Part shown: piece after piece, positions 5,812-63,361 of the stretch
Numbering within the stretch: the first letter of the stretch is position 1
Layout: every line of letters begins with the position of its first letter
From: Cycas panzhihuaensis
Lineage: Eukaryota; Plantae; Cycadophyta
DNA length: 64,000 nucleotides
Direction: 5' to 3'
NCBI GenBank assembly: GCA_023213395.1
Contig: CM041465.1
Coordinates: 125,309,741-125,373,740, forward strand
The notes under the pieces: model-generated
The model's database searches: none
The model's input: the letters and a program-made list of their open reading frames with translations, nothing else
What the model was told of the DNA's origin: nothing
Position numbers and translations under genes: made by a program

Positions 5812-6396
5812 TATAACATTCAAAAAAACTAGTCAAAACTATGCCATATAACCATTCAAATCGAAGGCCTCTGGATGAAGATTCCAACAATTCAGACAAA
5901 AGTCAATTCCGACATCTCTATCAAAAGTTATAACCGTTTCAAGTTAGCCTACCAGTTTTAGAGAAGCTCTGGCTGACTTCTATTTAAATAGTATTAAGGA
6001 TAATATCACCCAGTCTGGCCGACTTCTAATTGAAGTATTTTGATCATTATACATAGGAAGATTGGGCCGCATCCCAAACCATCATTCGGAGGTTCCTTTG
6101 GTTGCGCATTTTCGGTTCTAGGGCTGCAATTAGCTCGCCCATTTGGGGCTGCAGTTCAGAGGGTTCCTCGCCTCGAAGAGAGAAGCTCAATTCTTCAAGG
6201 AAGATTGGTATTTTGTTGTAATTTCGCTCTATTTTGATATTATTTGACAATAAAGATTATTATTTGCTTCTGTGGATTCTGTAATTCCTGTTCCTTATTC
6301 ATTTTCTTATTGAATAGCATCTAGTTATTGTTTTTTGTGGATTATTACCTGTATTTTTTAGGAAAATTGCCATAAAAGTATAACTAGATCGCTACA
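5812..6396 (+). repeat. 5' LTR of chromovirus
   Basis: TATAACATTC...GCTACA (TG mutated to TA). About 50 differences in 585 bp versus the 3' LTR by manual count, mostly transitions. Confidence 0.97.
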
Positions 6397-6398
6397 AG

Positions 6399-6410
6399 TG
6401 GTATCAGAGC
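6399..6410 (+). promoter_or_regulatory. Primer-binding site, tRNA-iMet
   Basis: TGGTATCAGAGC 2 nt after the LTR end. Confidence 0.95.
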
Positions 6411-6540
6411 TTCATTTCGAGGGGAAAGGGCAAAGGTAAAAACACAAAAAAGGTTGAAAATTCCCCTCCCCCCCCCCCCCCCCCCCCCAAGGGAAATAGG
6501 AACGAAATTGAGATCAAGGAAAAACCTCATTCCCAGGAAG

Positions 6541-9500
6541 ATGGCAGCCCAATCCAGAACCTCAACAGAAAAAATTGAAGGTGCATCAAAATTAAACCAA
6601 AGCATAAAGGCTTTAACAATCTTAATCCAGGAGTTACTAGCAAAAGCAAATCAAGCAACACAAAATGTGTCGGGTGGAGAAATGGATAATAGCAATGCAT
6701 TAGGAATAGATCAGATAGATACCTAGAACAATCAAGAAAACCAAGGGAATAGATTTGATGGACGAGTTTATGAAAGGAGAACTTGCAACATGGATAGTGG
6801 ATGGAAAGGAGCAAGATTATCCTTGGAAAAATTTGATCCCAAAGTATCCAAGAATATCACAAATTGAATCTTACAAATGGAGAACTATTTCAGGGTCTAT
6901 AACTCAATAGCTAAGGAAAAGATGGAAATAACATCCTTACACTTAAATAAAAGGATGTTAAGGTGGTACTATTGGTGGCAAAAGATGAACATACCAATAC
7001 AACAGACTTGGGAGAATCTAAAAGGAGGATTAGTAGAGCAATATAACAATTCTTGGAACACGGATTACTTTGTTCAATTAACACGATTACATCAACAAGG
7101 AACAGTCCAAGAATATACGGAACAATTTCAAACACTACAATGTATGGTCTTAGAAAAAATACCGCAGGAATGTTTACCGGAGACTTATATTAGTGGATTG
7201 AAAAATCAGATCAAATTTAGAGTTAAAGCAGCAGATCCACCACAACTCCAAGTAGCAATTCAAATAGCAAGAAATATGGAGGCAGAACTCAGAGACAGTA
7301 AACCAACGTATACAAGGAGATATGAGCCACCATCATATTAGACCCAAAATCCTAATTGGGCAAAATCAGAAACAAAGGCAGATCCTCTGTTAACTATAAG
7401 AAATATTGGAGAAAGCTCAGGAACAACAAAAGAGGAGCATATAAGGAAAGGGACGTGCTTCAAGTGTGGAGGAAAATAGAATAAGGAACACCAGTGCCCG
7501 CTAAAGAAAGTTTTCATGATCAATAATGAGGATGCAGAAATACGAGAAGAAGTAGAGCAATAAGTAGAACAAGACTAGAGCATAGAAAGGGAGGAAAATG
7601 AACTTCTGGAAGTAGATATAGGGAATGTCCAAATCTCATTGTAGGCCATTACGGGGCAACAGGTATCCCCACAAACCCTAAGATTCCAAGGACAAATCAA
7701 GGGAACACCAATATCAATTTTGGTTGTCAGCGGGGGTACACACAATTTTATAAACAAGGCAACAGCAGAAAAACTGGGATTACAAGTGAAACCCCTCAAC
7801 ACATTCCAGGTGTCAATAGCAAATGGGAGAACAACGCTATATAGAGGATACTGCAAAGATACAACTCTCCAGATCAACGATTACAAGGTCACAACTTGTA
7901 TGTTTGTCATGCCCATAGGCGAAGTGGACACAGTTCTGGGGATTCAATGGCTGCAGACGCTGGGAAACATCATTACCAACTATATGACAAGATTTATATG
8001 TTTTCGACAAAAATGACGCAAATATCGACTACAAGCCCTAGCCGCACCTCCAATTCAGCTTGTATCATCTCACAGGATGGAAAAAATTCTAAAGAATCCG
8101 CAAGCGTACATAATGTCATGTTACAAAGTAAAAATAGAAGACGTTCCCCTAGAGATTCAAGCAATCTTAGAAGAACATCAGAGCGTTTTTGAAGAACCCC
8201 AAGGACTACTACCGAAAAGGGAATTGGAACATGCAATAGACCTTATCCTCGGAGCAATACCAGTCAACATTCCTCTATATAGACATCCTTATCATCTCAA
8301 GAAGGAAATTGAAAAAATCACACAAGAACTGTCACTCCAAGGCATAGTGGTGAAAAGCACGAGTCCATTCACCTCTCCCGTGGTGGTCAATCGAAAGAAG
8401 GACGAATCTTACAGAATGTGTGTGGATTATCATGGCCTAAATAAATTGACCATAAAGAATTGGTATCCTATCCCAAGGATTGAAGATTTATTAGATGAGT
8501 TACATGGAGCCCAATACTTTTGAAAGATAGATTTGCACTAAAGATACTACCAAATAAGGGTCAAAGAAGAAGATGTCTACAAAACTACATTCAGAACGCA
8601 TGAAGGGTTATTTGAATTCAGGGTTATGCCTTTCGACTTAACAAATGCTCTAGCTACTTTCCAAAGCACTATGAATTCAATATTAAAACATATTCTAAGG
8701 AAATTTAGGCTGGTTTTCTCTGATGATATCTTGATCTACAACAAAACATGCGAAGAACATATGGAACATATGAAGGTAGTTCAGCTAATACTTGAGAAAG
8801 CGCAATTGTTTGCAAATAAGAAAAAGTATTCTTTCGCAAAAGAGGAATTAGAATATCTGGGCCACATTATCACAGTCGAAGGAATCAAAATCAATCCAAA
8901 AAAGATCCAGGCAATTGTAAACTGACCAACCCCGAAGAATGTCACAGGAGTAAGAAGTTTTTTAGGCGCAATGGGATTTCTAAGAAAGTTCATAAAAGGG
9001 TATGCACACATAGCATCGTCACTAACAGACCTAACCAAAAAGGATGCGTTCAAATAGAATTCAGGAGCAGAAGGAGCATTTCAAGAATTAAAACAAGCAA
9101 TGATTACAGCTCCAGTATTGGCCTTACCAGAGTTCACTCAACCATTCACATTGGAATGTGATGCTTCAGGTTTTGGAATAGGAGTAGTTCTGTCACAAGG
9201 AGGAAGGCCTATAGCTTATGAAAGCTGGAAGCTGAATAATAGGGAAAAAATGAAACCAATATATGACAAAGAGATGCTGGCCATTATGCATGCAATACAC
9301 CAATGGAAGTAGTATTTATTAGGGAGCAGATTTGTGGTCAGAACTGATCATGACAACCTCAAGTACTTTCTGAATCAAAAGGCATTATCCGATGAGCAAC
9401 AAAAGTGGATCAGTAAGTTGCAGACTTTCGACTTCACCATAGAATACAAAAAGGGGAAAGAAAACATAATAGTGGATGCTCTATCCAGACTGTCAGAGGA

Positions 9501-10965
9501 AGGAAAGATTGAAGCCTCATCCAATTCAATGACAATAGCAACTCCAAAATGGACAACAGAGTTGGCAAAGGAATACGAAGACGACAAGATATCACAAGAA
9601 ATAAGACAAAAGATTGCAGAAGGAAAAGTAGTGCAGTTCACGGAACAAGGAGAATTAATTCTAAGGAAAGGAAAAATATTTGTTCCAAAGACAAGTAATC
9701 TAAAAGAAGCGTTATTTCAAGAAGCTCACTCAACTCCAATTTTAGGATATTTAGGGATGGATAAGACTTACAGAAGGCTTCGAAGTTCATTTTACTGGAA
9801 AGGGTTGAAATCTGACGTCCTCTGGTTTGTATCAGAATGTGATACATGTCAAAGGAATAAGACTGAATCTGTGAAGACACCTGGGTTGCTCCAACCCCTT
9901 CCCATTCCCCATAAAAAATGGGAAGAAATTTCTATGGACTTTATTACGTATCTTCCGCATTCAGAACGAAGAGATGCAACTTTTGTAGTGGTAGATAGAT
10001 TAACCAAATATGCCCATTTCAGGGGAACTTAGACAAGAGCAAAAGCAAGCCAAATAACAGAATTATATATGAAAGAAATTCACAGACTACATGGCTTTCC
10101 AAAAGTTATAGTCAGCAACAGGGATCCCAAATTCACAAGTCACTTTTGGAAGGAGCTATTCAAATCAGCTGGCACTAGCCTACACATGAGCTCAGCATAC
10201 CACCCGCAGACAGATGGCCAGACAGAAATAGTTAACAAATGTGTGGAGGAATACTTAAGAAACCTTGCATCAGATAAACAGACGCAATGGCATCGATGGC
10301 TCCATCTGGCAGAATGGTGGTATAACACCACATACCACACAGCGGCTAAAATGTCACCATTTCAAGCCCTATATGAGTATGAACCTCCATCACTCTTGAA
10401 TTGGCTAAATACATCTAAAGTGCAAACAATCCAAGAAAACTTGCAAAAGATGCAAAAAACAATTTGAATACTAAAGAATAATTTGGAGATGGCAAAGAAT
10501 AGGATGAAACAACAAGCAGATATAAAGAGATCTGAACAGAGTTTTGAGATAAGAGAATGGGTATTCTTAAGACTCCAACCCTACAAACAGATGTTGATGA
10601 AACAAAATAATCGATATAAATTATCACCAAGATTCTTTGGACCATATCAAATCGAGGAGCGCATATGGGAAGTCGCATAACAGTTAAAACTGCCACCAGA
10701 AAGCAAAATCCACAATATCTTCCATGTGTCTTGTTTAAAGAAAAAGTTGGGCGGAAAGGAGGCTCCACAAACAAATTTACCAACACTAGATGAAGAAGGA
10801 ACGATGATAGTGGAACCTGAGGGGCTACTAAAGACCAAGCACAATAATTTGCAATCCAGAATAATAAAAGAATATGTCATCAAATGGAAGACATTAGAGC
10901 TTGAAGATGCAATGTGGGAGTCTGAAGAATGGATGCAAAAAAATGGGCCCTTAGCAATGCTTTGA
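6541..10965 (+). pseudogene. gag-pol polyprotein pseudogene with C-terminal chromodomain
   Basis: Gag MENYFRVY...QLTRLHQQGTVQEY; protease LVVSGGTHNFI; RT YRMCVDY...LVFSDDILIY; RH LECDASGFGIG; INT WEEISMDFI...HPQTDGQTE, GPY; chromodomain EYVIKWKTLELEDAMWE. Broken by in-frame stops. Confidence 0.95.
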
Positions 10966-10981
10966 GGGCAAAGCATGTTTT

Positions 10982-10993
10982 GAAGGGGAGGGA
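10982..10993 (+). promoter_or_regulatory. Polypurine tract
   Basis: GAAGGGGAGGGA just before the 3' LTR. Confidence 0.9.
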
Positions 10994-10995
10994 CT

Positions 10996-11580
10996 TGTAA
11001 CATTCCAAAAAACTAGTCAAAACTATTCCATGTAGCCATTCAAATCGAAGGCCTCTGAATGAGGATTCCAACAGTTCAGACGAAAACCAATTCCAACATC
11101 TCTATCAAAAGTTATGGTTGTTTAAAGTTAGCCTGCCAATTTTGGAGAAGTTCTAGCTGACTTCTATTTAAGCAGTATTAAGGATAATATTACCCAGTCT
11201 GGCCGACTTCTAAGTGAAGTATTTTGATCACTATATATAGGAAGTTTGGGCCGCATCCCAACCCATCATTCGGAGGTTCTTTTGGTTGCACATTTTCGGT
11301 TCTAGGGTTGCAATTAACTCGCCCATTTGGGGTTGTAGTTCAGAGGGTTCCTCACCTCGAAGAGGGAAGCTCACTTCTTCAGGGAAGACTGGTATTTTGT
11401 TGTAATTTCGCTCTATTTTGATATTATTTGACAATAAAGATTATTATTTACTTCTGTGGATTCTATAATTCCTATTCCTTGTTCATTTTCTTGTTGAATA
11501 GCATCTAGTTATTGTTTTTTGTGCATTATTACCTATATTTTTTAGGAAAATTGCTATAAAAGTAGAACTAGATCGCTACA
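10996..11580 (+). repeat. 3' LTR of chromovirus
   Basis: TGTAACATTC...GCTACA, followed by TSD TGCAA. Confidence 0.97.
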
Positions 11581-13699: not shown

Positions 13700-15595
13700 T
13701 AAGAAAATAGGGAAAAATGGATGCTAGGAAAAGGATTTTGGTAATGGCATGTCAAGATGATTTGTACAGTAATGCAAAGGGCTAAGAGGAAAGCATACAG
13801 GGTAGCAAGAAAGCTCATGATAGCTAGAGTGAGGATGCAAAGTGGGGACAAACAATTCTTTGCAGAGGGGGTGTATAATGATAGCATTGAGGGTTGAAAC
13901 TCGTTGAGAGGAGGTTAGAAGACAAGGAGCATGGGGGTGGTGATAAAGACACTTCCTAGGAAATGGGAAATGAAGGTGTATCTCAAGTGGCATAGGAATT
14001 TCACCTATCAGGAGTAGGGAATCTAGGGCTTTAGGGTTTAATTCGTTTATAGGATTTTATGGTAGAAGGGAGAAGGGGATTTTCAAGCCTATTGAACTTG
14101 AGAAATCAAGATGAACAAGGAAACTTCCAAAAGAGATAGGTAAATGCAAGATATGATTAGAATTTAAATCAAGTACCTTTTTAAAGTCATCCTGCCTCTC
14201 AGATTCTTCCTCAAGTTGCTTACCTGGTTCGAGTCTAGGCTACTCACTGGCGATGGTTTCCTCCCTTACCTTGTGTGTGTCATTTATCGATTCATCGTAT
14301 TGGGTATTTGTATGCTCCTTGCTAGATTGTTCTACCCACATCTCCTCAAGAGCATCAAGTTTGGCTAAGAGTCTCTACATTCTTTCTTGATAACGCCTTC
14401 CATTATCCTCCATTCCACATTTATCTCTAAAGCTTGCAAAATATTTATCCATGTAGTTTCTCTATCATTCATCGAACCACCTTGCAATTCTTTCATCAAA
14501 TGTCATAAAAAACACTTGCGAAAAAAATTCCCAATAAGGGCAATAATTTGAAAGCCTTTTAATGGCCCACTCCTAAGCTTGTGCCCCTATAAATTCCTAA
14601 ATAGGAGGAAAATAGCCCTTTCCATGTGGGGTTGAATATTAAAGCCATTTTCTACCTTCTCCAACCACTCTATAGGGGCATACTCCTCCATCTTAAGTAA
14701 AAATAAGAATATCTAGATCCATCTTCAAATATTAGTTTCAAATAATAATTACCATATTAAATCAACACCAACATACATCAATTAATATCTCAAAATGACG
14801 GTCTTTGAATCAAAATTCCAACACTTCAAACGAAATCAAATTCTAATACCTATAACAAAAGTTACGGCCCTTTTAAGATGGGTAGTGAGTAGGGTTTTCG
14901 GTGACCATAACAGTATCTCTTACTAAAATGCAATTAACTTTTTACTCTGATGTCCAATTCATCTGAAACCACTTACAACGAAAAATAGACATCAAGATGC
15001 ACAGATTTAAAAAACAAAAATTGAGGTCAATCAAATACTTGTAACTAAAGTCATAGGTGTTTAAAGTTGCAATAGCACATTTTAGGCCCTAAAGACAATA
15101 AGAGATAGTAGGCCAAAACTAAATCACTTGTAATTTTTACAATTTCGTTCTAAACCCTAGCTCAATTTTGTGGTTAATTTTCAAAAATTCCTCCATTCAT
15201 GCTTTTGAAAATGTAGATCCTTGATAGGCCAAAAACGAAGCTCCCTTACCACTTGAAGTGATCCTAAATCGGATCCTCTTCCTTAAAACACCAAAGAAGG
15301 TTCAAATGAATGTCGAATAGGCAAAATTGCCCCAAGCACCAAGTGCCAAATAAAATCTAGATTAATCCAAAAATAAAACTTATGTAATGAATTGTAGTTT
15401 TCTCTTATTTATAGGTGTCAATATGACTCCCTACTAAAAAACCAACTTCAATAATAATATTAATAATAAAATACCAACTTCGTAATATAAAACCCAACTT
15501 CATATTAACTTGAAAATACCAACTCCCTAATAGTAATAAAAAAATTGACTTCTAATAAAATACCAACTTCTCCTTAATAGATTAGGATCACTATA
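13700..15595 (-). mobile_element. Truncated pol-less LTR element related to 53073-57136
   Basis: LTR-like start TATAGTGATCC at 15595 with GAAGTTGGT sub-repeats and TATAAATA. Leader 14800-15110 is homologous to 53815-54090. Gag-NTD-like remnant PIEWLEKVENGF.../AQA*EWA...YWEFFSQVFFMTF (14490-14690), then a P/H/L-rich tail. Confidence 0.65.
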
Positions 15596-16189
15596 GTATG
15601 TCAGCTAAGTTCATCCTTAACACATTATACTTACACAAATCACTTAATCATCAACACCCAACCAAGCATGGTCACAAGCACAATATCATTTCAATACCAA
15701 TCCTCCTTTATTTATTGTTAGTACATTGCCTTCTAGTGCAACTACTCTCACCAGTCACATTGCCAATAGTCAATGCTTACAAAAGAAGGTCTGCAAGACC
15801 ATGGGGAGCATTGCCTATTACTAGTTCTTTAATATAATCTCTCTATTCTCTTTTACATCAATTCTCTAATGCTATATGTATTCTTGTTAAGGACCTAACC
15901 CTTATCATTCTTCTTCTCAAGTCTTATATTACTCTTCTTGTAATTATCCAACATTCATAAGTCCAAGAGATCGACGGCCTTAATAGCCCTATATATATGT
16001 ATGTAATGTATGAGTGGAATCATCATTTTTGGAGTGTTGTGATCTTATGTATTGGACGTTGCCCTGTCAAAGAGGCCCATCAATACATGTGATTATTGAT
16101 GCTATTATGTATAATTTTGGCTCTCGTGTTGTCATATGCATTTTAGATTGCTCTCTTTAATTCAGATTCATTACAATTGGTATCAGAGC
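15596..16189 (+). mobile_element. LTR (left end unresolved) plus tRNA-iMet PBS
   Basis: TATA run at ~15990, ends ATTACA at 16175, TGGTATCAGAGC at 16178-16189. Confidence 0.75.
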
Positions 16190-17779: not shown

Positions 17780-18263
17780 TAAAAAAAGAGTAAGTACCTA
17801 AAGAAGCCCAAGAGTAAAGGCAATAAGCCCTTTGAGAAGGGCATCACCTTATCCAACGCTTCTTCGCATCATCCTTATCCCTAGGAATTGCCATGGGAGC
17901 CCTCAAATTTGTAGGTCAACCATATGAACAAAGAATATAATCAAAAGGACAAACCAAAAGTAAATGAAAGAGAAATAAAAGGGAATGTGCAGGTGGGAGT
18001 CTCTCACTTAATCCAAATCCAAGAAGTGCCACTAGCAAGGCAGCAGCTTCTTAGTCTAGCTATGATACCATGTAGGAAAAATGAATGTACACACGCAACA
18101 AAGAATTTGAGAAAAAACTCAACTATCTAACTCGTTTATCGAATTGTCAAATGTGTACATATATAACTCATGGTTCATGGTTGTTAATGGTTGTTATACA
18201 ACCACCTAACCATCTAACTACCTACTAATTACATGTTAATTAAAGTTCATAATGACTCTTACA
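17780..18263 (-). mobile_element. Short copia-like LTR (18071-18263) with PBS and gag scrap
   Basis: TGTAAG...CCTACA on minus, adjacent TGGTATCATAGC (18059-18070). Downstream KRWIR*DALLKGLIAFTL resembles copia gag. Confidence 0.65.
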
Positions 18264-24659: not shown

Positions 24660-25277
24660 GAAGGCATTAACTATGAGGAGAGTGTTGCTCCCATGGAAAA
24701 TTTGATCACAATGCGTACCATGATTACCCTAGGTACTTTGTTCAGATGGAATATCTATCAGATGGATGTCAAAAGTGCCTTTTTGAATGGAGATTTTAAA
24801 AAAGAGATCTATATGGAACAACCCCTTAAATTCATCAATCATAAGAAAGCTTTGTATGGCTTAAAACAAGCCCCCAGAGCATGGTACAACAAGTTAGACC
24901 AATACCTAAAAAAATATAATTTCATAAAAGTGAATCTAATTCAAGCCTTTACATAAAGACTAGTAATATTGCTTTCCTCACCATCATAGTTGTTTATGTA
25001 AATGGTCTACTTGTTATAGGAAATAATAATATAGGCATCGAGCTTTTGGAAGAAAATCTAATGAAAACATTTAAGATGACAGATATGGGAATGCTACAAT
25101 ATTACTTGAAAGTGGAAGTAAAGCAAGAAAAAGGCAAAAATTTCTTAGCTCAAGCCAAGTATACAAAGGAACTATTGATCAAACTCAAAATGGCCAATTG
25201 CAAACCTGTTACAACTCCCATGGGAACCGAATGTAAGCTAACTATAGAAGATCGAAGCCATTTGGTTGATGAAACAT
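24660..25277 (+). pseudogene. Copia reverse transcriptase remnant
   Basis: YQMDVKSAFLNGD...KALYGLKQAPRAWY...FKMTDMGMLQYYL. Cut by the LTR at 25278. Confidence 0.92.
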
Positions 25278-26210
25278 TGTAGCATTCCCAAAAAAATAAA
25301 GGAGGAAGTCGGTTTTATAAGAGGGATTTATTATGGTGAAGTTGGTTTTTAGAATTAAAAGAAGAATCATTTATTTTGTTTTATTATGAAGTCAATTTTT
25401 TTGGAGGGAAAAATAATAGATTGGTTTTGAAGGCTATAAATAGAGCAACCTCCCTCATTTGTAAGTCAATGTTGGAGAATTTTTGTTATGGTTGGTATAA
25501 TGGCCTTGTGCCATTAGGGCCTCGTGATTGTTGAAGGATTGCACCCGCCTCAAAGAGGGTTGCTACTATTGAGTTTTTGTACCAGGTTCTATTATAAATT
25601 TATGATCATTTTCTACTATTATCTATCCATGCTTGGATGTTATACTGCATAGGCCCATTGAATAATATTTTATGAGCACATACTACTGTAAATATATGGT
25701 ATCTGTTGTGAACTTTTGTGAATATTGTCGTTATCTGTTGGAAATTTGTTTCTTGCTTGTTGTTCATCCAAAGGGCCTGCTACAATTGGTATTAGAGCCG
25801 GTGATTGATTCTGTTACCAACCATTGAGGCCACTGAGCGATAAAGAGTATTACCAGGCCTTAATGATTCATTGCCTTGTGAAGGTTTGTCCTACATCCTA
25901 GTCCATACGATTATGGATAGAGACAACATACTCTCCTTGCAGAGACCCATAGAGGCAAGCCATGTAGTGGTCAAGCACAGACCCTGATTTGAATCACTCG
26001 GGCAATTGAACGATATCGAGGTAGAGGCAACATATCCCTGGGAAGGGGCAACTTGACCATCGTGGGTGCAAGTATGTGCAAACGAACGAGGATACAACTC
26101 CGAAGGCGAGCGAGTGATTCGTAAAAATAATCTGAACGGCGACGGAAGTCAATTACCAATACAATACAAGAAAAACAACGAGCAAATTCCATCGTGAGCA
26201 CGTGATTCCA
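25278..26210 (+). mobile_element. 5' LTR (25278-25784), PBS (25787-25798) and leader of a chromovirus-related element, truncated
   Basis: TGTAGCATTCC...GCTACA, then TGGTATTAGAGC. LTR related to 2161-2664 and 53073-53648. Confidence 0.85.
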
Positions 26211-29200: not shown

Positions 29201-32200
29201 ACATCAAACCTTAACCTAAAGGCTGATTGTAGGTTTTCCCAAGTCTATAGGTTATGATGATGAGCTATGTCCCACCACCAAGCGTTTTCCTTAAGGGATA
29301 TTACGAAATCAAGTACCCATTATTGTTTATTTATGATCTTGTGTTGTAACCAATGTTCCATACATTGGATTAAGTGTTTTGTACCTTCCATCCTCTTTCT
29401 TGAGAACGTAGGTATTTGGTTTTGCCCAACAGACTTATCTTCTGATATAAATTCTATGGGATGATCCTTATTTGTAATTTTTTGTAAGCTATTCTCTATG
29501 CTGGGAAGATTTGTTGGAAGAGAATTGGATGAGTTTAAGGGAAACTTCTGATTGGAAGTAGAATGTTCCATCTCGACCCATTGGGCTTCGGTGGAAGGTT
29601 TTGGAGGGATACCCCTAGAGTCGAAAGGAAAATTGGCCAGATCTCCCAATTCGCTTATGGGGCTGAAGAGTGGGGTTATGGGAGCAAGGGAGGAATGGAG
29701 GAATGGAGAGGAGAATGAGAGGTTGTGATTAGATGTACGTGGACTTTATGTTTTATTTGAAATTCAACTCTAACTATATTATGTTTTAATCATTTTTCAT
29801 AATTTTCAGCACATATATAATCCAAATTATTATTATTTAGTTTATTGTCAATTGAAGCATATTTGGACAAAAAATTACAACGAAAGGAATAGGGTTGCAT
29901 TTCATATGCATCGTCCATCCAATATTGAATCATATGGTTGGTTTCATTCTCATCAGATGATGCTTCGGATGGTAATTCCCCATATACATTTGGTTCATAC
30001 TCCTAGGCATTGTTCATGTGGCTAGTCTCCTCTGTCGTGTGGTATAGATTAGCTTCATCGAATGTAGAAGAAGTTTCTTGAGTGGCAATTGTTGTACTGG
30101 ATGTTATATCTGGAATGACTTCTACCGTATATTTCCCTTTTGCCAACATAGGGAGGACAACTTTGTTTCCCCCATCCGTGAGGGTAAATGTTACATCCTT
30201 CCAGCTTTGTAAGCACTCGGTTTGATATAACCACAGTCTCCCTAGTAGTGTTGGATAGGTAACCATGTCTTTCACAATGTCCATGATCGTAAAATCAATT
30301 GGAACGATGATACTGGCCACATTCACTTGGATATTTTCTAGTCGCCCTACTAGTTTGACTAATAGTTTGTTAGCCAATTTTAATGAATAGTTAGTTGATG
30401 CTAATCGAGGGCTCCCAAGTTTTTTCCATGTTTGGGTTGGTAGGACATTCACTGCTGCTCCTCCATCCATGATGACATTCTTGAGATTAATTCCAAAAAT
30501 GCCAATATCCACTGAGGGATCCAAATCACAAGATGGTTTGATTTTATTCAAACTTCTGTAAGCTTTCTTTGGGTGTATTTTCTCTTCTTTGATCCATTCG
30601 ATGACCTTCCCTAATGGGATGGTTAAATTTAGTTGATTCACCAGATCTTCCATTAGTAATAACTTTTGTAGGAATCCTTCCATTTTAGGGTTCCCTCTTG
30701 GGTTTTCTTGCATAGTTGGTTCCTGTATTTTCTTGTTCTTTCTTCTGTATACTTGTTTAACTTCTGGCCTCCCTAGGGGTAACGATTTGAGTCCTTCTTC
30801 CTGTGCGGCTTCTTCTAATGCTTTCTTCACAATGGCAAAGTGATCAATTTCTATCTTAGGGTTAGGATAATCATCTTCGTTTCTTCGATTCTGTAAGTTA
30901 ACATTTTTTGGAAATTCGGGTATGATTGTTACTCTATTTAAGGCCTTGCCCTTGCCCTTGCATTCTTCAATAGTATGAGTGCTTGGACCACAATTCTTGC
31001 ACAAGTATGGGCACTCTTTCTGAATCTTTGTTATTGGACAATCTGACTTCCAGTGTCCATACTCCAAACATATCAAACATCTGCCCAGTAGAGGTATTTT
31101 CCTTGGGTTTTTTGGTTGGGTTCGGGTTGTGTATATTGTACGAGTGTTCATATTGTTTCTTCCTTGCCCTCTCCCCCGGGTGTTGGAACCTCTAGTGTTA
31201 AAATAACAATCAGGTGTGTTGTGTGTTCCTTGGTCGCAGATATGGCACCAAGCGTTTTGTTTTCGATTCCTTGCATTACATTAACATTCCTTGGTGCTAT
31301 GGGTGCTTTCTTCACAAATACAGCACCATTTTTCTATCAGAGGTTCTTTTCCTCGATGTGTTTCGGAATATTCCCTAGAATTGTCTTACTGTAATTTTAG
31401 CTTGACTACTTCTTTCCTTAAGGCTTCTACCTCCGTGCTTTCTTCTGTTTTTGTCATTTGGAAGAGAGGTCTATTCAAATTCTAGGTTTTTAGCTCATTA
31501 ATCTCCTCTTGCAATCTCATCACAAAAGGGTCATATGCTATCCTCTTCGTGTCTATCTCTTTTTCGAAATCCAAAGCCAACTCCTGCGGATGCTTATATG
31601 ATTTCAATTAGTGGGATGCCATTGCATTCCTTAGCTTAATGTTTAATGAAAAAAGTGTGCATGCTTAAATCCGCAATTTTCTCATTGGTGGTCATAGCGG
31701 CAGCAATCATGTCTATTCTGTTGATATAGGTCAAAACTGACTCTCTGGGTTTCTATTGGATTTCTTTCAATGCTAATTCGATGATATCATTGTTTCTATA
31801 CTTTAGAAATCTTGTTTCAAACTCTTTTTTGATTTCACTCCATGATTTATTCTGGTCTAGTTGCTTGTACCATGCCAATGGTACGCCTCTTAGTGAGTAT
31901 GCGAATCTTTCTTTGATTTCATCCTCATTCGTAATCTTCTCAAGATTAATCAATCTTTGGAATAAATAGATATGTTCTGCAGCGTCGGTTGAGTCATCGA
32001 AGATGAGTTTCCCAAACTCCCCCCTATGATGCGCCATTGTAAACTTATCTTTCTCTTCTTTCTTAGGTGGAACTGTTATCTTTTCTTCGAAGAACTTCTT
32101 ATAGTCTCCTTGGTGGTGTTTCTTCCCTACTATTCTCCTTCCCGAACAAAGGATTGCGTATTAGTGATTTCAATTGAATTATCCCCGGTACTCCTGGTAT

Positions 32201-37391: not shown

Positions 37392-38234
37392 CTATCCCTT
37401 TCTATCTGTTGTGATTTTCTTGGTTGATGGGTTCATCCTAGGTGTCATATTCCCCTAGCTTCTCTGTGCCCGATGATTCTTGTTCTTCCATGGTTATCTC
37501 GGCTCTACGAAACTGAGGAGTCTCTCTAAAGGTTTTCATCCACCCTCTTATTTGTTATGCAAGACTCTTTATGTTGTTGTTCAATTTGTCTACTCTCTTG
37601 TTTGTCCCCTCAGTCTGATTTAGGGCCTAATTCACCATCTTTGGTGAGCCTTTTTTTCGATCTGGGTTCCGTCTTGGGGGAGGAGGGGGGATAATTTGAT
37701 TGTTGATTTTTGTTGCTTCCCTCTAAGTTCCCACTTCGAAACAAAGCTCCGATACCACTTATAGATTCACTTAAAACTGAATTATCTGCTGGAAAGGACT
37801 TTGAATACAAGTAATATGCAACAAAAATACAAAATATGATAATAATTGCAGAATAAATGAATGCGAAAGAGGGCTACCCAAATCACAAAATAAATAAGGG
37901 AATGAATGAGCAGAATATCACAAAAGGTAGGGTAATGAAATGTTAGCTAAGCACAGTGTTGGAGCCAAATTAATGCTCCCTCTTCAAGGCGAGGTAGCCT
38001 CCAATTACTACTGCCCAAGGGTTGAAGGACTACTGCATTGAAGGCCGAAAATGACTTGCCAAATCAATGCTAGGATGCTTCGGAATGAGGTCCTTGGGTC
38101 CCTTATATAGTTGGATTCTACCTCCAAATAGAAGTCGACCAAGACAGGGAGAAATACTAGCTTAAATATCACCTGTAAATCGACTAGAACAATGCTTCTA
38201 AGTCAGCCAAGACTAAATAATTTGGTTTACTACA
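37392..38234 (-). mobile_element. Chromovirus 5' end: LTR 37760-38234, PBS 37746-37757, leader and gag start
   Basis: TGTAG...CTATA, then TGGTATCGGAGC. Leader and KLNNNIKSLA are homologous to 6399-6620 (KLNQSIKALT). Confidence 0.8.
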
Positions 38235-50699: not shown

Positions 50700-53600
50700 C
50701 GACCGAATCGATTCAATTGTGCAACAGGTCATCTCCTCTCTCCATCTAGTCGTTTCCTAAGCAATGTTGTTTCTTTTGTCTCAACACTGAAACGAAGAGT
50801 ACCACTGTCACACAGCAACTTTAGTGTTACGTAGCAGCTTAAATTCATCTACATTCAAAGATGTGATTATCCAAGCTACCATTAAACTTGTATTCGAGAA
50901 GTAAATCTCCTTGCTCAACGTAATTGCATCCTCATTGGCTTACTCTCTTGAGCTAATGTCCACCTCTGATTATCTCTTTTCTAAGCCTCCAACCTGTCAC
51001 AGCTTCAACTCTACCTTCTATAATCCATATCAAACCTTCAAAGTTTGCTTACCCATTTTTTTTATTCATCAGACAATTTCTTCTGACTGAGGAAATATTT
51101 GAGGCTGTCATGGTATGTTTTGACCACGAACTTATTCCCTAGCAAGTATTGGCACCATTGGTGTATGGCGTGCATGATTACAAGCATCTCTTTATCAAAG
51201 ATGAGCTTGAGTCCTCTCCCTACAATTTAACTTTTGGCTTTTGTATGCTAGAGGTTGATCTTCCTAGTGGAGGACTACTCCAAATCCTGTCCTTGATGTG
51301 ATGCAATATAAAGTGAATGGTTGAGAGAAATCTGGAATTGCAAGTACTAGCATTGTGATCATAACTTGCTTAAGTTCATGAAAGGCATTCTCTGCTATGG
51401 GGTTCCATGCAAATCCATCCTTCTACGTGAGGTATGTTAGAGGGCGATGCAATGTGAGTGTAACCCTTAATAAACTTTTGGAGAAATCTAGTTGCCCCTA
51501 AAAAACTCCTTACTCCTATTACATTCTAGGGAGTAGACCAACAGATGATGGCTTGAACCTTTTTGGGTTCTATCTTAATACCTTTCTGAGTAATAATATG
51601 CTCAGGTATTCTAGCTCAACTTTCCCAAAAATGCATTTGTTCTTGCTGGCAAAGAATATGTTGCTTCTCAGAACTTAAAGAACCGCTTTGATGTGCTCCA
51701 AATGTTGGCTTCGCTCTATGTTGAACTACAAATTAAATTATTATTAAAAAAACAACATTGTACTCTGAAAAGTTGCCAGTGCATTGGTTAATCCAAATGG
51801 CATAACTCAAAATTCAAATAACCCTTCATGTGTACAGAAAGCGAAAAAGTGGTTTTGTATACATCTTCTTCCTTGATGCGAATCTGTTAATATCTTAATA
51901 GCAGGTCAAATTTTTAAAATACTTTGCCCCATGTATTTCATCTAACAAGTCATCTATCCATGGAATGGGATGGTGATTCTTGGCAGTCAACTTGTTTAAT
52001 CCCAAATAAGAACCATCTGATAGAGTGCTCAACCTTTCACTTTAGATTGCAACACATTAAGGATAGAAGTAGGAGCAATCCTCCTCCAGGAAGATTGCCT
52101 CTAGCATACGAAAGCCAAAAGTTAAACAACAGGGAAAGACTCAAACCCGTCTATGATAAAGAGATGCTTGCAATCATGCACACCAAACACCAATGTTCCT
52201 TCAAGATTTTCTCCATTTGGTGGGACGTCACCAGTTAGGTTGGGGATGTGGGAGGAGCCTACATCGTATGTCTATGACCCTTTTGACAAAAATTCATGAA
52301 TTGAGTTTTGTAATTGGTGACTACATTTCCTAGGGTTTGTAACCATTGTATTCCTAATACAATGTCCACTCCTCCTATTAGCATTGTCAACATGCAAGAG
52401 GTCATCGAATAGTCTTCAATTTGGAGGCTCACTTTTTGGCAATACCCTCCACATGTCATAGTCTTTCCATTAGCAATGGTGACCTGAAAGGCATTAAGTG
52501 CTTCAATAGATAACCCTAGTTTCTCTGTAGTTGGTCTATTGATAAAGTTGTGGGTTCTTCCACTATCAACTAGAATGGCAACTGGTGCTCCCTTGATCAC
52601 CCCCTAAAAACATAAGGTTTAAAGGGTGATAATCTATCCCGTAATATCCTGTAGTGTTATCTACACATGTTTCATATCCATATCCAAGAGCTCTTCTACT
52701 TCAACTCCATCATTCTCTTTGGGAATTTTTCCTTCTTCATTTTCCTCCTTTGGGATGGTTGTGCTTTCATTATTGATCATGAATACTTTCTTCAACAGAC
52801 ATTGATGATCTTTGCTCCATTTACCCCCACATTTGAACATGTACACTGCCTTAAGTGCTCTTTTGATACTCTGTTTGCATCACTAGTGCCTTTCTCTGCG
52901 AGTGGTGGATTTGTCTTTGTCCAAGACTTAGTCCAATTGAGATGGAGATTAGGGTTTGGCTCACTATGACGATTGTAAGTGGGTCGGCCCTCTCTGTACT
53001 CTACTTCAATATTTCTTACGTGGCTAATGGCTATCCGTAAGTTTGTTGCCCCCATCATTTTTATATGGTATTTGTAGCATTCCAGAAAATAAAGAAGAAG
53101 TTGGTTTTCTATAGAGGGAATTATTATTATCAAGTCAATTTTTAAGAGGATTAAAGAAAGAATCATTTAATATATTTTATTATGAAGTCGGTGTTTTTTT
53201 AGAGAGAGAATTAGGAGTTGGTTTTCGAGATAGAAAAATAAAGGCTATAAATAGAAAAGCCTTTATCATTTGTAAAACAATCTTGGAGAATTTATTACAC
53301 TTGGGATAAGGGCCTCATGCCATTGAGGAACATCTATGCCAAATTAGAGGATTGCTCTCACCTCGAAGAGGGTTACAACTTCTAGATATTGTACCAAGTT
53401 TTGTTATTATGATATTATTATTACTTTGAATTATGTTGTTATTTATTAATGTATGGATGTTATATTGCATGGATGGATGAACTATAACTATTGAATTATA
53501 TTTTTTGAAGAATTGTGTACTGTAAATGTAAGTTATCTATTGGAAATATTATTTGTATAGAAAATTACTGTTGTTAAATGCATGAAATCTATTGTGAATA

Positions 53601-56600
53601 TCTATGATTATTACTGTTACCTATTGTTGGAGATTTGGGTCCGCTATAAGTCGTATCAAAGCTTCATTTTTAGGAATATAAATGAAAACATTTTGTAAAA
53701 TAGCCATAAATTTGAGTTGGCTAGGCCCATTCTACAAATTTTGAGTGGTTATACCATAGGTTTTGGAGCTCAATTGTGAAAATCGCAAGGAATTTAATTT
53801 CACCCTCCTATTTGTCATTGTTTTCAGAAGCCTAAAATCTACTATTGCAAATTCAAATGCCCATAACTTTTGCTACAGGTGTCTAATTGACCTCAAATGT
53901 TTTTGGAATTTGTGCATCTCTGCGTCTATTTTCTGTTGGAAATGGTTTCAAATCCATCAAATATTGGAGCAAAATGTTATCAACATTTTAGTAACAAGGA
54001 CTATTGCAATCCCTAGAAACCCTAATTGTGACCCACATTAAAAGGGCCATAACTATTGCTATAGGTATCCAAATGACCTAAATTTTTTTTTTTGAATTGT
54101 TGTGGCTTGAAGCATAGATTACTCAAAAAGAAGAAGAAAATTCAATTTGGATATCTAATTCAAAAGTTATTGCTATTTTAGTGGAGGGCATTGTTGTTGC
54201 ACTAAAATTCATATTTTTTATCCAACTTGCGGAGGCCATTACGGGAGCTAAAAAGCTCCAAATCACCTAAAACTAGGCACATTAGAGATGTTCTTAAGTC
54301 CTTCCACTCAGGAAAAGGAATCAATCAACTTGGGTCAATGAAGAAAAAATTATATCAATTTTGTTTTTAAAATGGGGGTACTAGACATTTCCTCTCTAAC
54401 TCAAGCTGCAAGTGCCAGATCACAGTGTTGTCTGAACCATTGGAATCTGGGTTCATAGACAGTCACTTTGAGTGGTCATATTTGATAGTTTTGATTAATG
54501 TATGATGTAGATTTTAATCGATGAAGTTGTAGCTATTGTTGACCAAAAACTCTTTTGAGTATCCACAGTTGCATGGAGAAATTTAATTGAGCCATTTGAG
54601 GTGGCTAACAAAGTGCAGATCTCATTAGAAAAATGGAACTCCAATGAAGAAATAGCGGCAATAGAATGGACAATGATGTTGCATGCCTACTTCGACATCC
54701 ACTCAATGCTCTTGAAGGAAAGAAGATTACTTTCGCATCCCAATATCTAAGTGGTAACAAAGTAAGGTGGTTCAGACAATTTTGCAGAACCTGCAAGGAC
54801 TTGGAGTACTTTAAGTGGTCATTCTTAAAAGGGGCGATACAGAAGGATTTTAAAGGAAGTTGGTTTTGGACTAGTTTCAAGTGCAACAATGAATAAAAAT
54901 TTGCAAAGAAAACTAGATAACTAAAGAGGGCACATTTACAGTCTAAAGTTTAGAGACTAAAAGGAAAAATAGCCTCAATTTTTTTAATCTAAATCACAAG
55001 AATAATGTGATGGATTGGGTAGAAACACTTGAGAACTATTATGAATACACGTGTGATACAAAAATTGAAGTGTATGGCCCATTGTTAACATGCTTCCTAG
55101 AAAGAAGAGCTCTTGATTGGTTCACATATTAGGGTAAAGAATCACCTATGCTCTCCAATTGGGGTTGGTTTTGATCTGCATGCATCCAAGCCCTTTGTGA
55201 GGACATTGAAGCATTAAAGATACTTGACGAATGTGCAAAAATAGAAGAAAAAGCAGCAAAGGAAGAACAACAAACTAGTAAAGAGGAGGCCTCAAAGACC
55301 TTACATGAATAGGAACAAGAACCAGTTCAGACAAAACAACATGATTGCACAAAATAGTTGAAGCAGGTGCACATGACTAAAGAGTCTCGCGAGAGGCAAA
55401 TCAAGATCAAAGAAGCGACCCAAGGAGAAGTTACACAAGAGCAGCACAAAAACGTGGAGGAACAAGCCAAAGAGCAACTAGTGAAGGAACAAACCAAAGA
55501 ATCTCAACAAACCTCATGCAAATCCAGCAAGGTAGTCATTGATCTTGTGTTGCACATGCAGATTTCATTTGGTAGTTTCATTTGTCCTCTCTCATTTCCA
55601 AGCACCATAGTTGTAGAAAATCCTTCTTTTCTTTTTTCCATAGCCAGTCAACAACCTAATCCCCTTAGCTCTTATTTTATCGTAGGGCAAATCCCAGTTC
55701 CCTTTTACAAACCAAGTATAATGTTGTCCTTACACAAATTTTCCCCCTCTAGGATTTTCCCTCATCAGGCTATTCTAAACCATTCATCCTCACTTCATCA
55801 GGATTCATCACATGGTATGATGATTACTCCCTACAAAACCCCATTCGGTCCATCCCAACCACCTTCTTCTCCGCACTACCAAAATTGTTTTTTTCAATAA
55901 ATCCTTCATTTTCTCTGAACTGCATTCCTAAAAACCTATTAAACTCTTTTTTTTATAAAGAACATTTATCGCTAATCCCTTATCCACTCTTCTCCCCAAA
56001 GAATTCTTGTGGTCAAACACTTCACAAATTCTCATTCAAGTCAAAGTCCAAACTTCATCCTTCCTTTTTACACCTTCAAAGTTGTGGCGGATCACCATTC
56101 AAAATTTCGCTTCTTCCATTTTCTTTTCCTCTAAGCAATCATCAATTCAAGACCCATATGATCGACTCTTTTACAAATCTCCCAAATTCCATTGTAACAT
56201 TCCCCACAAAATTCCTTAGTATTTCAAGCACCTCTCATTCCATAAGCCATTCCATTACAGGACAAAATGTGCAAACACAAAGAAAGACCAGGGCAAGGCA
56301 TCTAAGGCACCTCACAGGTCCTAGGATTCCTTCACTATAGAACAATTTACAACATCTACCTAGCCCCAAGAATGAGCATCAGCAAATTATGAACACTCCT
56401 CAGTAAAATCCAATAGAAGCTGCAAGATGGGACACAGTCTTCATGAAATACAAGACTCAGCATAGACAAACACTGGAAGAACCAGTCAAAGCTAAACAAA
56501 GCCAAGCAACAAGCAATTTCCAATACTGCGAGGGCGAAGTATTGTTTTAAGGGGAGAGGAATTGTAGCATTCCCAAAAATAAAGAAGTTGGTTTTCTATA

Positions 56601-58448
56601 GAAAGAATTATTATTATCAAGTCAGTTTTTAAGAGGATTAAAAAAAGAATCATTTAATCCTTTATTTATTATGAAGTTGGTTTTTTTTTAAAGAGAGAAT
56701 TAGGAGTTGATTATCGAGAGAGAAAAATAAAGGCTATAAATAGAAAAGCCTTAATCATTTGTAAAACAATCTTGGAGAATTTATTATACTTGGGATAATG
56801 GCCACACACCATTAAGGCACATTCATGCCAAGTTGGAGTGTTACTCTCGCTTCGAAGAGCATTCAATTGTTGGATATTGTACCAAGTTATGTTATTCTAA
56901 TATTATTACTACTTCAAATTCTGTCGTTATTTATTAATGTATGGATGTTATACTACATGGATGGATGAACTATAACTGTTGAATGATATTTTATGAAGAA
57001 ATGTGTCTTGTAAATGTATGTTATCTATTGGAAATATTATCTCTATGGAGAATTACTAATGTTAAATGCATGAAATCTACTGTCAATGTCTATGATTATT
57101 ACTATTACCTGTTGCTGGAGATTTGGGCTTACTATAGTATTTGATATGTCCCTTAAGCCCCCCGATGCATGTCTGGGTAATGAGCTCATCCAGTATTCTT
57201 TCAGTGACCAAACATTGGAGGGCTTGGAATTATTTTGTGTAAGCATGACCTAAGCCAATTTGTTGTAATCGTGTAAGCTGAGCAAAGTAATCCCTATTCC
57301 AAAAGTCTTCGTATTGATCGATCAGACCTGCTTTAAGGGAGGCCCGATTATCGTCTGGGGTATCCATATAGACATTTCTCCACCAATGGAACCATGAACC
57401 ATTGAAGTGCTCTTCCATATAAGTGGAGTGAAGCTACAAAAATTCATTCCTTGTTAGATAGGCCATATGCCTGGAGGTAAATCTCCATCTATAGTATCCA
57501 ACTATAGATATCCATAGATCTGTCAAGATCAAATTTTTTTAAAAGAAACTTTGTTCCCTTGAGACCGTTGTCTAGTTCAAAATTCCTTTGACTTCTTTGT
57601 TGAAAGTCCCTTTGATCTCTTCGTTCATGGAATTCTTTGCCAAACTTCCTTTGATCCTTTTGCTCTTGGAGTTTATCTTTACCTAAACTTTCCCCCTCTT
57701 CTTGTTGTTTATATAGTTTTCCACTGGTTGAGTCTACTAGAGTACCAATGGCCCTTACTTCGTCATCCATGACTAATACAACATCATGTAGCTCATAAAC
57801 CCTTTTTTTGAGGAAAAAGGAAACAAAAAGGGAAAATGTTTTGCCTTTTCCCAATTGGATTTTCTTTTTCTAAGACAGTAGATCCTTTCTCAAGATGGCT
57901 TCAAAATGAGGCTCTAATACCAATTGCAGCGAGCCCATAGGGATTTACATAAAAAAAATAGCTAGCTAATGTAGAATATTGCAAAGGTATGGAAAAATTG
58001 GATACAATTGTTTGAAAATAGCGCAATGCAATGTATTTTCGGCATATATCTATATATAATAGACTAAATATCAAGTAAAATATAGTGAAATATGATGTAC
58101 AAAACTTACATATAAGGCTCTTATTCCTAACTTCCTCTCCAAGGCGAGGTGCCCTCTAAATTGCAATCCATTAGGCCAAAAATGCAGCAGCCTAGATTCA
58201 CTCGATGATGCCCTAGGAAGAGGCCAAAGATCCTCTTATATAGGCAAATGAAGAGATGCATAAGGGACTCAGCCAAAAGCTATAGAGAAGTCAACTAAAA
58301 GGCTATTTATTGGATGACCAAAATACTGCATGAAGTTAGTTAGGAAAAATGGTAATTATATATTTACTAAGGTTGGCCAAAATATTCTTGAAGGGTCGGC
58401 CAGACAACCCTTCAGAAGTCAGCCAAAACAGGGAAAGGGAATGTTGCA
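50700..58448 (-). mobile_element. Decayed chromovirus related to 5812-11580, split by the 53073-57136 insertion
   Basis: LTR 57925-58448 (TGCAACATTCC...GCTGCA), PBS 57911-57922, gag DYFAQLTRLQQIG, protease ILVDSGRTHNFI, RT/RH scraps down to ~50900. Confidence 0.88.
53073..57136 (+). mobile_element. Complete non-autonomous (pol-less, TR-GAG-like) LTR element
   Basis: LTRs 53073-53648 and 56563-57136, TSD GTATT, degenerate PBS 53651-53662, PPT 56549-56561. The 2.9 kb interior has no PR/RT/RH/INT motifs, only two gag-NTD-like modules and low-complexity sequence. Confidence 0.93.
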
Positions 58449-62109: not shown

Positions 62110-62480
62110 TGAAATTTCTGCAGAAATACAATTTGATTACTGAACTTCACAGGTCTGCAAAATCTTCTACAGAGATCCAATTGAAGTGATTCCAACTGTC
62201 AAAGATGGGGCTCTGAGTCTACTTTCCAGTGCAAAACCTGGCACCTAATTTGGATGTCGTATGAGGAAGTTATTGCTGTTTTAGTGAACAGCAGTTATTT
62301 TTAGTAAGAATTCTGGAAAAATATAATTTCCTAACTTTACGAGTCTGTCAAAAACTTTCGAACTCATTTGGACTGATTCCACTTCACGAAGATGAAGCTC
62401 TAAGTCTAGTTTGCGACAAAAATCGGCACTCCATTTCGACATCGTGGGAGAAAGTTATTGCAGATTTAGTGAAGAGTACT
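62110..62480. repeat. Two degenerate ~185-bp tandem units in the copia leader
   Basis: AAGTTATTGC at 62267 and 62452 with colinear flanks. Confidence 0.75.
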
Positions 62481-63361
62481 TTTTTGTATTAACAAAAAAA
62501 AAAAAAAAAAGTGAAGAAAATTTCTTCCTTTTATAAGGCTTAAAAGCCCATTGTAAAAGTGAGAAAAAAAACACACGGATCGATTAATATCCTGTCCTCA
62601 CTCACTTATTAGCATTGCATTTCACACTCTAAAATCACTCAAAGCAAGCACACAAAGACACTTCAAGCAAGCACTCCAAAAGCACTCCAAGCAAGCATTA
62701 TTTTCAGTTAAATGTACGTTTGATGCAATTTGATAATCTTTTCACTCTTCCTAAAAGGAACGCATCACGTACGCTATTTTCCGCCATCTTGTACCTGTTC
62801 ACACACTCGCCAAGGTTGAGATACCTTGGTTGGCAGAATGTAGTGCCATAAAGGAGGTGTGGGTTTCAAGTTGGGACTGGACTAAACCGGAATATTGGTG
62901 AGGTTTGGTTAGCCATACCATCGTGCCTCAATCAGGGATCATCCTGATAACCAACCGAGAAAATTGAAACTTTAATACAAGATTAAAATATACCCGATCC
63001 AATATCCGTCATAGCCATGGGTATGCATGTACCACTCTTTAGAGGAGGTATATAGCTACTCATTGGTGAACTGGGTGAGGATTGGGAGTACCTGGGCTCC
63101 GTTGTGACTTGGATTTCATCACCAAGCAAGATTGCGGGTATCGCAGGTGAAGGCCAAATTAATTCTACTAGAAGCCTAGGCATCCCTTCAACAACCTCAA
63201 CTACACGTTGGACACAAGTTAGAGGTTATTGGGTTGATTACGCATCCTACATTCGAGTTTCAAGTTGTGTAAACCCAATGATGTCAACTTCTACATTGGC
63301 CTATAATCTTGTATATTGATCACTTACTTATTTGTAAAAAGTGATCCATAGTGTAATCACA

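What the first reader, a model, noticed from the sequence alone, without database searches (positions are those of the whole stretch)
53073..57136. Pol-less element encoding tandem capsid-NTD-like modules: candidate satellite of the chromoviruses
Seen: a complete element with TSD and no pol. Its interior has module 1 (~54615-54870, ISLEKWNSNEEIAAIEWTMMLHAYFDIH/KKITFASQYLSGNKVRWFRQF...KWSFLKGAIQKDF) and module 2 (~54973-55205, NVMDWVETLENYYEY...FLERRALDWFTY...NWGWF*SACIQAL). An E/Q-rich and then an S/P/H/F-rich tail follow, with no zinc knuckle seen. It shares LTR termini, PBS type, the post-TATA double hairpin and the pre-PPT hairpin with the autonomous chromoviruses, and it is inserted in the gag of one. 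Established: TR-GAG elements carry gag without pol. Inference: a mobilised satellite whose truncated, duplicated capsid modules could co-assemble with or interfere with helper particles, analogous to Ty1 p22 or Fv1 restriction.
Basis: partly seen in the sequence, partly recalled or inferred. Interest (0 to 1): 0.8.

Follow-up and report, generated by a model that had tools for sequence, protein, structure and literature searches.

The report
Pol-less retrotransposon with twin capsid lobes
This is a decayed copy of a many-copy jumping element that has no enzymes of its own and encodes two capsid front-half-like domains in a row plus a long tail, and it likely spread by docking onto the particles of a related complete element.

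Summary
53073-57136 is a complete, old LTR element (LTRs 87.6% identical, 5-bp TSD) with no pol, inserted in the gag of a Ty3/gypsy element. Both modules match the capsid N-terminal half of the window's chromodomain-bearing gypsy Gag, not its C-terminal half; no CTD or zinc knuckle was found. It is not a one-off deletion: thousands of divergent contigs from four coded organisms cover the interior. Most contigs that span this copy's two frame breaks keep module 1 and module 2 in one frame (8 of 9; 5 of 6). The tail is strongly depleted of stops, and a second, divergent pol-less copy in the window shares a tail motif. Not supported: that the modules are a duplication of each other (16 of 78 identical), a double hairpin shared as structure, or likeness to p22/Fv1 (p22 is the CTD). 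Structure prediction was uninformative. Verdict: a TR-GAG-like non-autonomous family with a remodelled Gag that my searches did not find described. The protein most likely docks on helper capsids; this is untested.

The parts
53068..53072 (.). Left target-site duplication GTATT
53073..53648 (+). 5' LTR, TG...TA, TATA near 53247
53357..53370 (+). 14-nt LTR motif shared with autonomous and host LTRs (also at 56846-56859)
   Evidence: 8 matches with up to 2 mismatches in the window, all in LTR-like sequence; alignment; no covariation
53651..53662 (+). Decayed PBS (initiator-Met type is a recalled label); LTR-end/PBS junction 85% identical over 33 nt to the autonomous element
53663..54500 (+). 5' leader with imperfect ~186-nt repeats, an inverted repeat (54029-54190) and a stretch (54428-54497) like the reverse complement of the autonomous LTR start
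54502..54609 (+). Likely start and N-terminal leader of the ORF (2 stops in this copy)
   Evidence: sequence; start is inferred
54610..54881 (+). Module 1, capsid-NTD-like; frame break near 54710 in this copy
   Evidence: (Ty3_capsid profile 45-79 of 198, E 0.015, below cut-off)
54882..54970 (+). Basic ~30-codon linker; second frame break lies near its end
54971..55210 (+). Module 2, capsid-NTD-like, 2 stops in this copy
   Evidence: profile of autonomous and host Gag only: iE 3.3e-4, positions 3-66
55211..55519 (+). E/Q/K-rich segment, likely coiled, length-variable among relatives
   Evidence: table 5
55520..55630 (+). Conserved hydrophobic motif around ISFGSF, shared with the divergent copy at 14030-14221 (-)
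   Evidence: score 74, 0 of 2000 shuffles; differences by codon position 16/9/25, pN/pS 0.38 over 39 codons
55631..56547 (+). S/P/F/H-rich, stop-depleted tail running to the PPT; frame change near 55750-55900 in this copy
56521..56544 (+). Pre-PPT hairpin shared with the autonomous element
   Evidence: 2 of the 6 stem pairs change on both sides among 3 sequences; stability alone not significant here (z -0.83)
56549..56561 (+). Polypurine tract
56563..57136 (+). 3' LTR
57137..57141 (.). Right target-site duplication GTATT
57137..57560 (-). Host gypsy gag, NTD and most of CTD, upstream of the insertion
51000..53072 (-). Host gypsy: rest of gag, protease, RT/RNase H remains; no integrase seen
13735..15640 (-). 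Divergent pol-less relative: LTR part, PBS, homologous leader (67% over 443 nt), one NTD-like stretch, acidic segment, same motif, S/P/H/F tail; 3' end not found
5813..11580 (+). Autonomous gypsy element with gag (zinc knuckle), PR, RT, RH, IN and chromodomain: candidate helper type
   Evidence: Chromo E 7.1e-5, 23.1 bits, below cut-off 25.1

Best explanation
This is a decayed copy of a multi-copy, pol-less Ty3/gypsy LTR family whose coding region carries two capsid-NTD-like lobes in tandem with no detectable CTD or zinc knuckle, followed by a charged segment and a long low-complexity tail; it was likely copied and inserted by the enzymes of chromodomain-bearing helper elements, and its protein would likely dock onto helper Gag shells through the two lobes and bring its own RNA along. 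Shown: boundaries, lack of pol, NTD likeness, many divergent relatives, shared frame of the two modules in relatives, stop depletion, shared PBS junction, LTR motif, pre-PPT hairpin and PPT. Inferred: mobilisation in trans (no enzymes, clean TSD insertion). Predicted and untested: that the lobes fold as capsid NTDs, bind helper capsomers, and that the basic linker or tail binds RNA in place of a nucleocapsid.
For: Family: 16,266, 19,823, 17,936 and 6,323 contigs from 4 runs of 4 coded organisms lay on 52400-57800, most under 95% alike (13,413 of 16,266 in X1); on 54540-55940 alone 3,465 and 3,597 contigs, 2,924 and 3,119 under 95%. Listed pieces overlap in a chain over 54397-55265 and 55573-56527. 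Frame: 8 of 9 listed contigs across the module-1 break and 5 of 6 across the linker have lengths that keep one frame. Constraint: 4 stops in 298 codons (other five frames 14-20; shuffle mean 18.4, 0 of 2000) and 2 in 215 (others 8-16; mean 11.8, 0 of 2000); third-position excess in the tail motif. NTD likeness. Helper link; LTR divergence 0.137 lies between an older host and a younger autonomous copy at 0.093. [quoted passage not shown]
Against: No structural support: the module 2 model has pLDDT 61 and no capsid match, though the real Gag control also failed (pLDDT 44). Identities to autonomous NTD are only 18-24%; Pfam sees only half of module 1, below cut-off, and nothing for module 2. No listed contig spans the element, none bridges 55266-55572, and copies in runs of one organism may be the same locus. 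One contig (depth 5.9) skips module 1, and the window's second copy shows one clear lobe, so two lobes are not universal. Two contigs across 55573-55939 do not explain this copy's tail frame change, so one ORF to the PPT is unresolved. The 37 coding-region variants I tallied by hand from the 40 rows shown (124 hidden) fall 12/10/15 on codon positions, no enrichment. LTR bodies of element and autonomous copy are barely alike (4 of 200 shuffles as high), so the exact helper is unidentified.
Confidence: 0.45

Rival explanations
1. The two NTD-like lobes act as a complete two-lobed capsid: the second lobe has taken the CTD's place, so the family builds its own shell and borrows only Pol.
For: Ty3 NTD and CTD share one four-helix fold (PMC6525542 passage) and tandem CA domains are thought to have arisen by duplication (PMC8458377 passage). 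The lobes are adjacent and in one frame in most relatives.
Against: Module 2 has no similarity to the CTD (672 of 1000 shuffles as high); the linker is ~30 codons; a relative with one clear lobe exists; Pol would still need a way into the shell.
Confidence: 0.15
2. The ORF was kept for translation-linked or condensate-forming reasons carried by the tail; the capsid lobes are drifting passengers and helper Gag packages the RNA through the shared cis signals.
For: The best conserved coding stretch between divergent copies is the tail motif, not the lobes, and far more contigs lie on it. Lobes are highly diverged and variable in number. A Ty1 Gag prion-like domain is needed for transposition (PMC10372613, listing only).
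Against: Both lobes keep the aromatic NTD pattern although they are only 16 of 78 identical to each other, which suggests long retention; both are widespread among relatives.
Confidence: 0.22
3. The protein is a p22-like dominant-negative that poisons helper particles and so limits helper copy number.
For: A CTD-less capsid fragment would make dead-end lattice contacts, as proposed for p18 (PMC8458377 passage).
Against: The element depends on helper particles and amplified to many copies; p22 is the CTD, not the NTD; it is not a single domesticated locus.
Confidence: 0.13
4. A single copy produced by post-insertion deletion of an autonomous element.
For: No listed contig spans the element or bridges 55266-55572.
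Against: Divergent contigs bridge module 1 to module 2 and tail to PPT; a second diverged copy has the same lobe-segment-motif-tail order without pol; the tail is not pol-like.
Confidence: 0.03

Closest known systems
TR-GAG elements (Chaparro et al. 2015, PMC4350172; seen: passages and the whole Discussion)
   Same: LTRs, PBS, PPT, 5-bp TSD, about 4 kb, gag-derived coding region, no pol, multi-copy, helper not identical in sequence.
   Different: TR-GAGs are described as carrying a Gag precursor (TR-GAG1 has a zinc finger and no internal duplication). Here there are two NTD-like lobes, no detectable CTD or knuckle, and some 450 codons of non-Gag tail.
GAG/PROT-retaining non-autonomous families of sugar beet (PMC13570524; seen: passages)
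   Same: Non-autonomous families with Gag remnants, often with no traceable autonomous partner.
   Different: The passages treat domains as patchy remnants and do not mention capsid lobes (0 occurrences of 'capsid'); here the frame is kept and no protease remains.
Chromodomain-bearing Ty3/gypsy elements (chromoviruses; 'Reina-like' is a recalled label, not tested by RT phylogeny)
   Same: NTD sequence pattern, LTR-end/PBS junction, 14-nt LTR motif, pre-PPT hairpin, PPT.
   Different: No PR, RT, RH, IN or chromodomain; LTR bodies unrelated apart from these signals.
Ty1 p22/p18 and Fv1 (PMC8458377; seen: passages)
   Same: Partial Gag/capsid proteins that could meet a capsid lattice.
   Different: p22/p18 is the CA-CTD made from the element's own sub-genomic RNA; Fv1 is an exapted host gene. 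This is NTD-like and encoded by a mobile, helper-dependent family.

Membership tests
TR-GAG | Two LTRs, PBS, PPT, 5-bp TSD | tested here: met
   both LTRs end TA rather than CA
TR-GAG | Short (<4 kb as described; 1-6 kb in the paper's filter) | tested here: inconclusive
   4,064 nt against PMC4350172
TR-GAG | No reverse transcriptase or other pol domain | tested here: met
TR-GAG | One ORF | tested here: inconclusive
   modules share a frame in relatives (8 of 9; 5 of 6), tail junction unresolved
TR-GAG | ORF is a Gag precursor with full capsid and nucleocapsid | tested here: not met
   two NTD-like stretches, no CTD match, no zinc knuckle; a very diverged CTD could be missed
TR-GAG | Many copies | tested here: met
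TR-GAG | Copies with different TSDs; transcription | not testable with these tools
   no genome held; contigs too short
Chromovirus (autonomous) | Integrase with chromodomain; RT in the chromovirus clade | tested here: not met
   element has no pol; the copy at 5813-11580 has a weak Chromo hit; host 3' part not found
Ty3/Arc-type capsid NTD | Sequence similarity to the NTD half of a gypsy Gag | tested here: met
Ty3/Arc-type capsid NTD | Four-helix CA fold | tested here: inconclusive
   model all-helical, pLDDT 61; control Gag also failed to fold
p22/p18-type restriction factor | Protein corresponds to the CA-CTD | tested here: not met
p22/p18-type restriction factor | Inhibits retrotransposition in trans | not testable with these tools
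   needs an experiment
Fv1-type domesticated gag | Fixed host locus rather than a mobile family | tested here: not met
   LTRs, TSD, many divergent copies

The most novel reading that the evidence does not exclude
The family has rebuilt a two-lobed capsid from two N-terminal lobes: a self-assembling NTD-NTD shell with a low-complexity tail in place of the nucleocapsid, a recent replay of the domain duplication that created the retroviral capsid.
Probability: 0.15. Interest if true: 0.85.

Novelty: new variant of a known kind. Interest (0 to 1): 0.52.

Why it matters
What the Gag of gag-only retrotransposons does is stated as open in the TR-GAG paper (PMC4350172 Discussion). A successful family that kept capsid N-lobes but lost the C-lobe and zinc knuckle separates the possible roles: it cannot be a plain spare Gag. 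If the lobes dock on helper shells, this is a protein-mediated satellite strategy among LTR retrotransposons. If they assemble alone, it shows that the two capsid lobes are interchangeable. Such families also escape domain-based annotation: Pfam found nothing in six full frames.

Tried and rejected
Whole genome: none held. Protein relatives: none in three word-indexed searches (module 2, the autonomous Gag, the tail); the full HMMER scan gave 2 hits, both summed matches to unrelated repeat proteins, rejected. Even the ordinary Gag had no hit, so these collections seem to lack this lineage and the blanks show nothing. Atlas: no result (sequence not held). Metagenome scans: 0 motif matches; 237 pattern matches, 0 confirmed. 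PDB sequence searches: best E 0.11 and 0.59, unrelated. Folds: Foldseek 0 matches; VIA best Z 7.0 to generic helical hairpins, no capsid listed; control model too poor to search. No complex model was obtained. Rfam 0; tandem repeats: one 14-nt doublet; tRNA genes 0. No RNA holder listed. Antisense ORF for the tail rejected: 12-16 stops in each minus frame. A chromodomain remnant near 56400 rejected: no match to the autonomous integrase end. One search used a mis-registered structure (my error) and is disregarded; the 'hostCTD' control was out of frame and is disregarded; the profile contains the modules and is circular. A CTD-like stretch in the 14-kb relative scored iE 0.56, not claimed. Contig depth was not used as copy number. 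Earlier scan findings: none returned. Paper searches for tandem or duplicated gag in non-autonomous elements gave nothing relevant in the listings; no supplements were read, and family tables in those of PMC4350172 and PMC13570524 may bear on novelty.
Full report
1. The element. Window 53073-57136 (+) has a 576-nt 5' LTR and a 574-nt 3' LTR, 87.6% identical over 572 aligned columns (46 transitions, 25 transversions, K2P 0.137), flanked by GTATT on both sides. A decayed PBS follows the 5' LTR after two bases, and a PPT precedes the 3' LTR. It interrupts the C-terminal capsid half of a minus-strand gypsy gag, whose flanks continue in register and lead on to protease and RT/RNase H remains. The window is a nest of old gypsy and copia elements at 34-42% GC; a large plant genome is my inference. 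No assembly is held.

2. No pol. Six X-read frames of 54400-56562 hit no Pfam family at E<=1. tblastx against the autonomous element at 5813-11580 and the host gave 5 rows at E<=1, the best a 19-residue match at the pre-PPT end (E 0.028). A suspected chromodomain remnant did not hold.

3. The modules. Both align to the N-terminal half of the window's autonomous Gag. Against 1000 shuffles, module 1 second half scores z 6.1 and module 2 z 5.8 on that NTD (0 of 1000 each), module 2 z 7.8 on the host NTD, module 1 first half only z 1.5 and 2.2; none matches the CTD. A profile built only from autonomous and host Gag finds module 2 at iE 3.3e-4 (positions 3-66), module 1 second half at 0.053, first half at 0.93, and nothing on CTD positions in this element. 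Pfam Ty3_capsid positions 45-79 of 198 match module 1 weakly (E 0.015). Identities are low: 19 of 78 for module 2 and 18 of 88 for module 1 against the autonomous NTD, 16 of 78 between the modules, with no DNA similarity. So 'tandem NTD-like' is supported and 'duplicated' is not shown. Folding was uninformative: module 2 pLDDT 61 with no capsid match, and the genuine Gag control pLDDT 44.

4. It is a family. Twelve of 24 listed runs, from six coded organisms, hold part of the stretch at small word shares; I laid 7 of the 24. At 80% likeness 6,323-19,823 contigs per run lay on 52400-57800, mostly under 95% alike, with cover in all 30 bins. On the coding stretch 54540-55940, 3,465 and 3,597 contigs lay in two runs, 490 raw capture reads in a third and 1 RAD read in a fourth. 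The listed longest pieces, with about 12-20% differences, overlap over 54397-55265 and 55573-56527 (one overlap of only 16 nt), and include six that cross from module 1 or the linker into module 2. None spans the element and none listed bridges 55266-55572. A second copy in the window (minus strand, about 15640-13735) has a 67%-identical leader, one clear NTD-like stretch, an acidic segment, the same motif and the same kind of tail, with only some 400 nt between lobe and motif. One contig of depth 5.9 skips module 1. Lobe number thus varies, but two lobes are common among this copy's closer relatives.

5. The frame was kept. By piece length against window length, 8 of 9 listed contigs across the module-1 break and 5 of 6 across the linker keep one frame (one of the six overhangs the likely place by under 31 nt; contigs from runs of one organism may be the same locus). 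One linker stop lies where at least 98% of laid depth in both contig runs reads otherwise; the other stops have no row among the 40 of 164 shown. Stops are depleted in the sense frame: 4 in 298 codons over 54995-55890 (14-20 in the other frames; shuffle mean 18.4; 0 of 2000) and 2 in 215 over 55900-56545 (8-16; mean 11.8; 0 of 2000). The motif differs from the second copy 16/9/25 by codon position, pN/pS 0.38 over 39 protein-aligned codons; the tail end against the short element at 1955-2162 gives 22/24/28 and 0.58, weaker. Against this: two contigs over 55573-55939 do not account for this copy's tail frame change, so a single ORF of about 680 codons is likely but unresolved; and my hand tally of 37 copy-specific variants gives 12/10/15, as expected for decay after insertion and uninformative on constraint.

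6. Cis signals. Shared with the chromodomain-bearing element: the LTR-end/PBS junction (85% over 33 nt) and the pre-PPT/PPT/LTR-start stretch (80% over 59 nt); a 14-nt LTR motif found at 8 places, in autonomous, host and non-autonomous LTRs; a pre-PPT hairpin in which 2 of 6 stem pairs change on both sides among 3 sequences (small n). The post-TATA double hairpin is predicted for this element's 5' LTR (z -2.6) but is not above shuffles in autonomous or host LTRs, with no covariation. Whole LTRs are otherwise barely alike. LTR divergences: element 0.137, autonomous 0.093, short element 0.153, copia 0.038; the host must predate the insertion, so helper-type elements were active before and after it.

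7. Mechanism. Shown: no enzymes, clean TSD insertion, many copies, kept frame, shared priming signals. Inferred: reverse transcription and integration by a gypsy helper in trans. [quoted passage not shown] Rivals: tail-driven retention with passenger lobes (0.22); a self-built NTD-NTD shell, allowed by the shared fold of the two Ty3 lobes (PMC6525542 passages) (0.15); p22-like interference (0.13); single-copy deletion (0.03). Binding is untested.

8. Comparison and novelty. It works like a TR-GAG (PMC4350172, passages and Discussion) but fails the full-Gag feature, so I call it TR-GAG-like and not a member. Gag-retaining non-autonomous families are common (PMC13570524 passages). Seven searches, judged from listings, showed no report of tandem capsid lobes in such an element; the library lacks most subscription papers and I read no supplements. 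PMC5379526 and PMC10372613 were seen as listings only. 'Reina-like' and 'initiator-Met PBS' are recalled labels.

9. Verdict. Real, a family, an unusual Gag architecture under past coding constraint; function open. New variant of a known kind, interest 0.52.

Noticed in passing
window 54428-54497 (+) and 14790-14877 (-): Both pol-less copies carry, just before the ORF, a stretch resembling the reverse complement of the autonomous element's LTR start (scores 64 and 88 against shuffle maxima 43 and 40 of 200). It could pair with helper RNA, or be one more copy of a widespread leader motif that occurs in both orientations.
   Followed up: partly
window 1460-2690 (+): Two related LTRs (86.5% identical) about 700 nt apart; the interior is only a tail-end-like stretch, pre-PPT hairpin and PPT, with no PBS: likely a deletion derivative of a sister family.
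   Followed up: partly
window 25277-25800 (+): LTR about 68% like the element's, followed by a PBS; the interior is not recognisably homologous in the part read.
   Followed up: partly
window 55527-55620: The tail motif draws about ten times more contig depth than its flanks, with many loose ends on both sides, so it seems shared by a much larger set of diverged families.
   Followed up: partly
window 54029-54209: Inverted repeat in the leader with the highest contig depth of the whole stretch in all four runs; a similar unit occurs at 62116-62495 with a ~195-nt period.
   Followed up: no
window 37400-38200 (-): Another gypsy 5' end with the same LTR motif, PBS and a proline-run gag start like the autonomous element's, cut by a copia insertion.
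   Followed up: no
window 30003-31280 (-): A 425-codon open frame without a Pfam match between gag and pol remains of another gypsy element, with diverged relatives at 11625-13735 and 18276-18669.
   Followed up: no
window 51156-51325 and 52028-52195: Inverted 170-nt pair (83% identical) inside the host's pol region: a local rearrangement.
   Followed up: no
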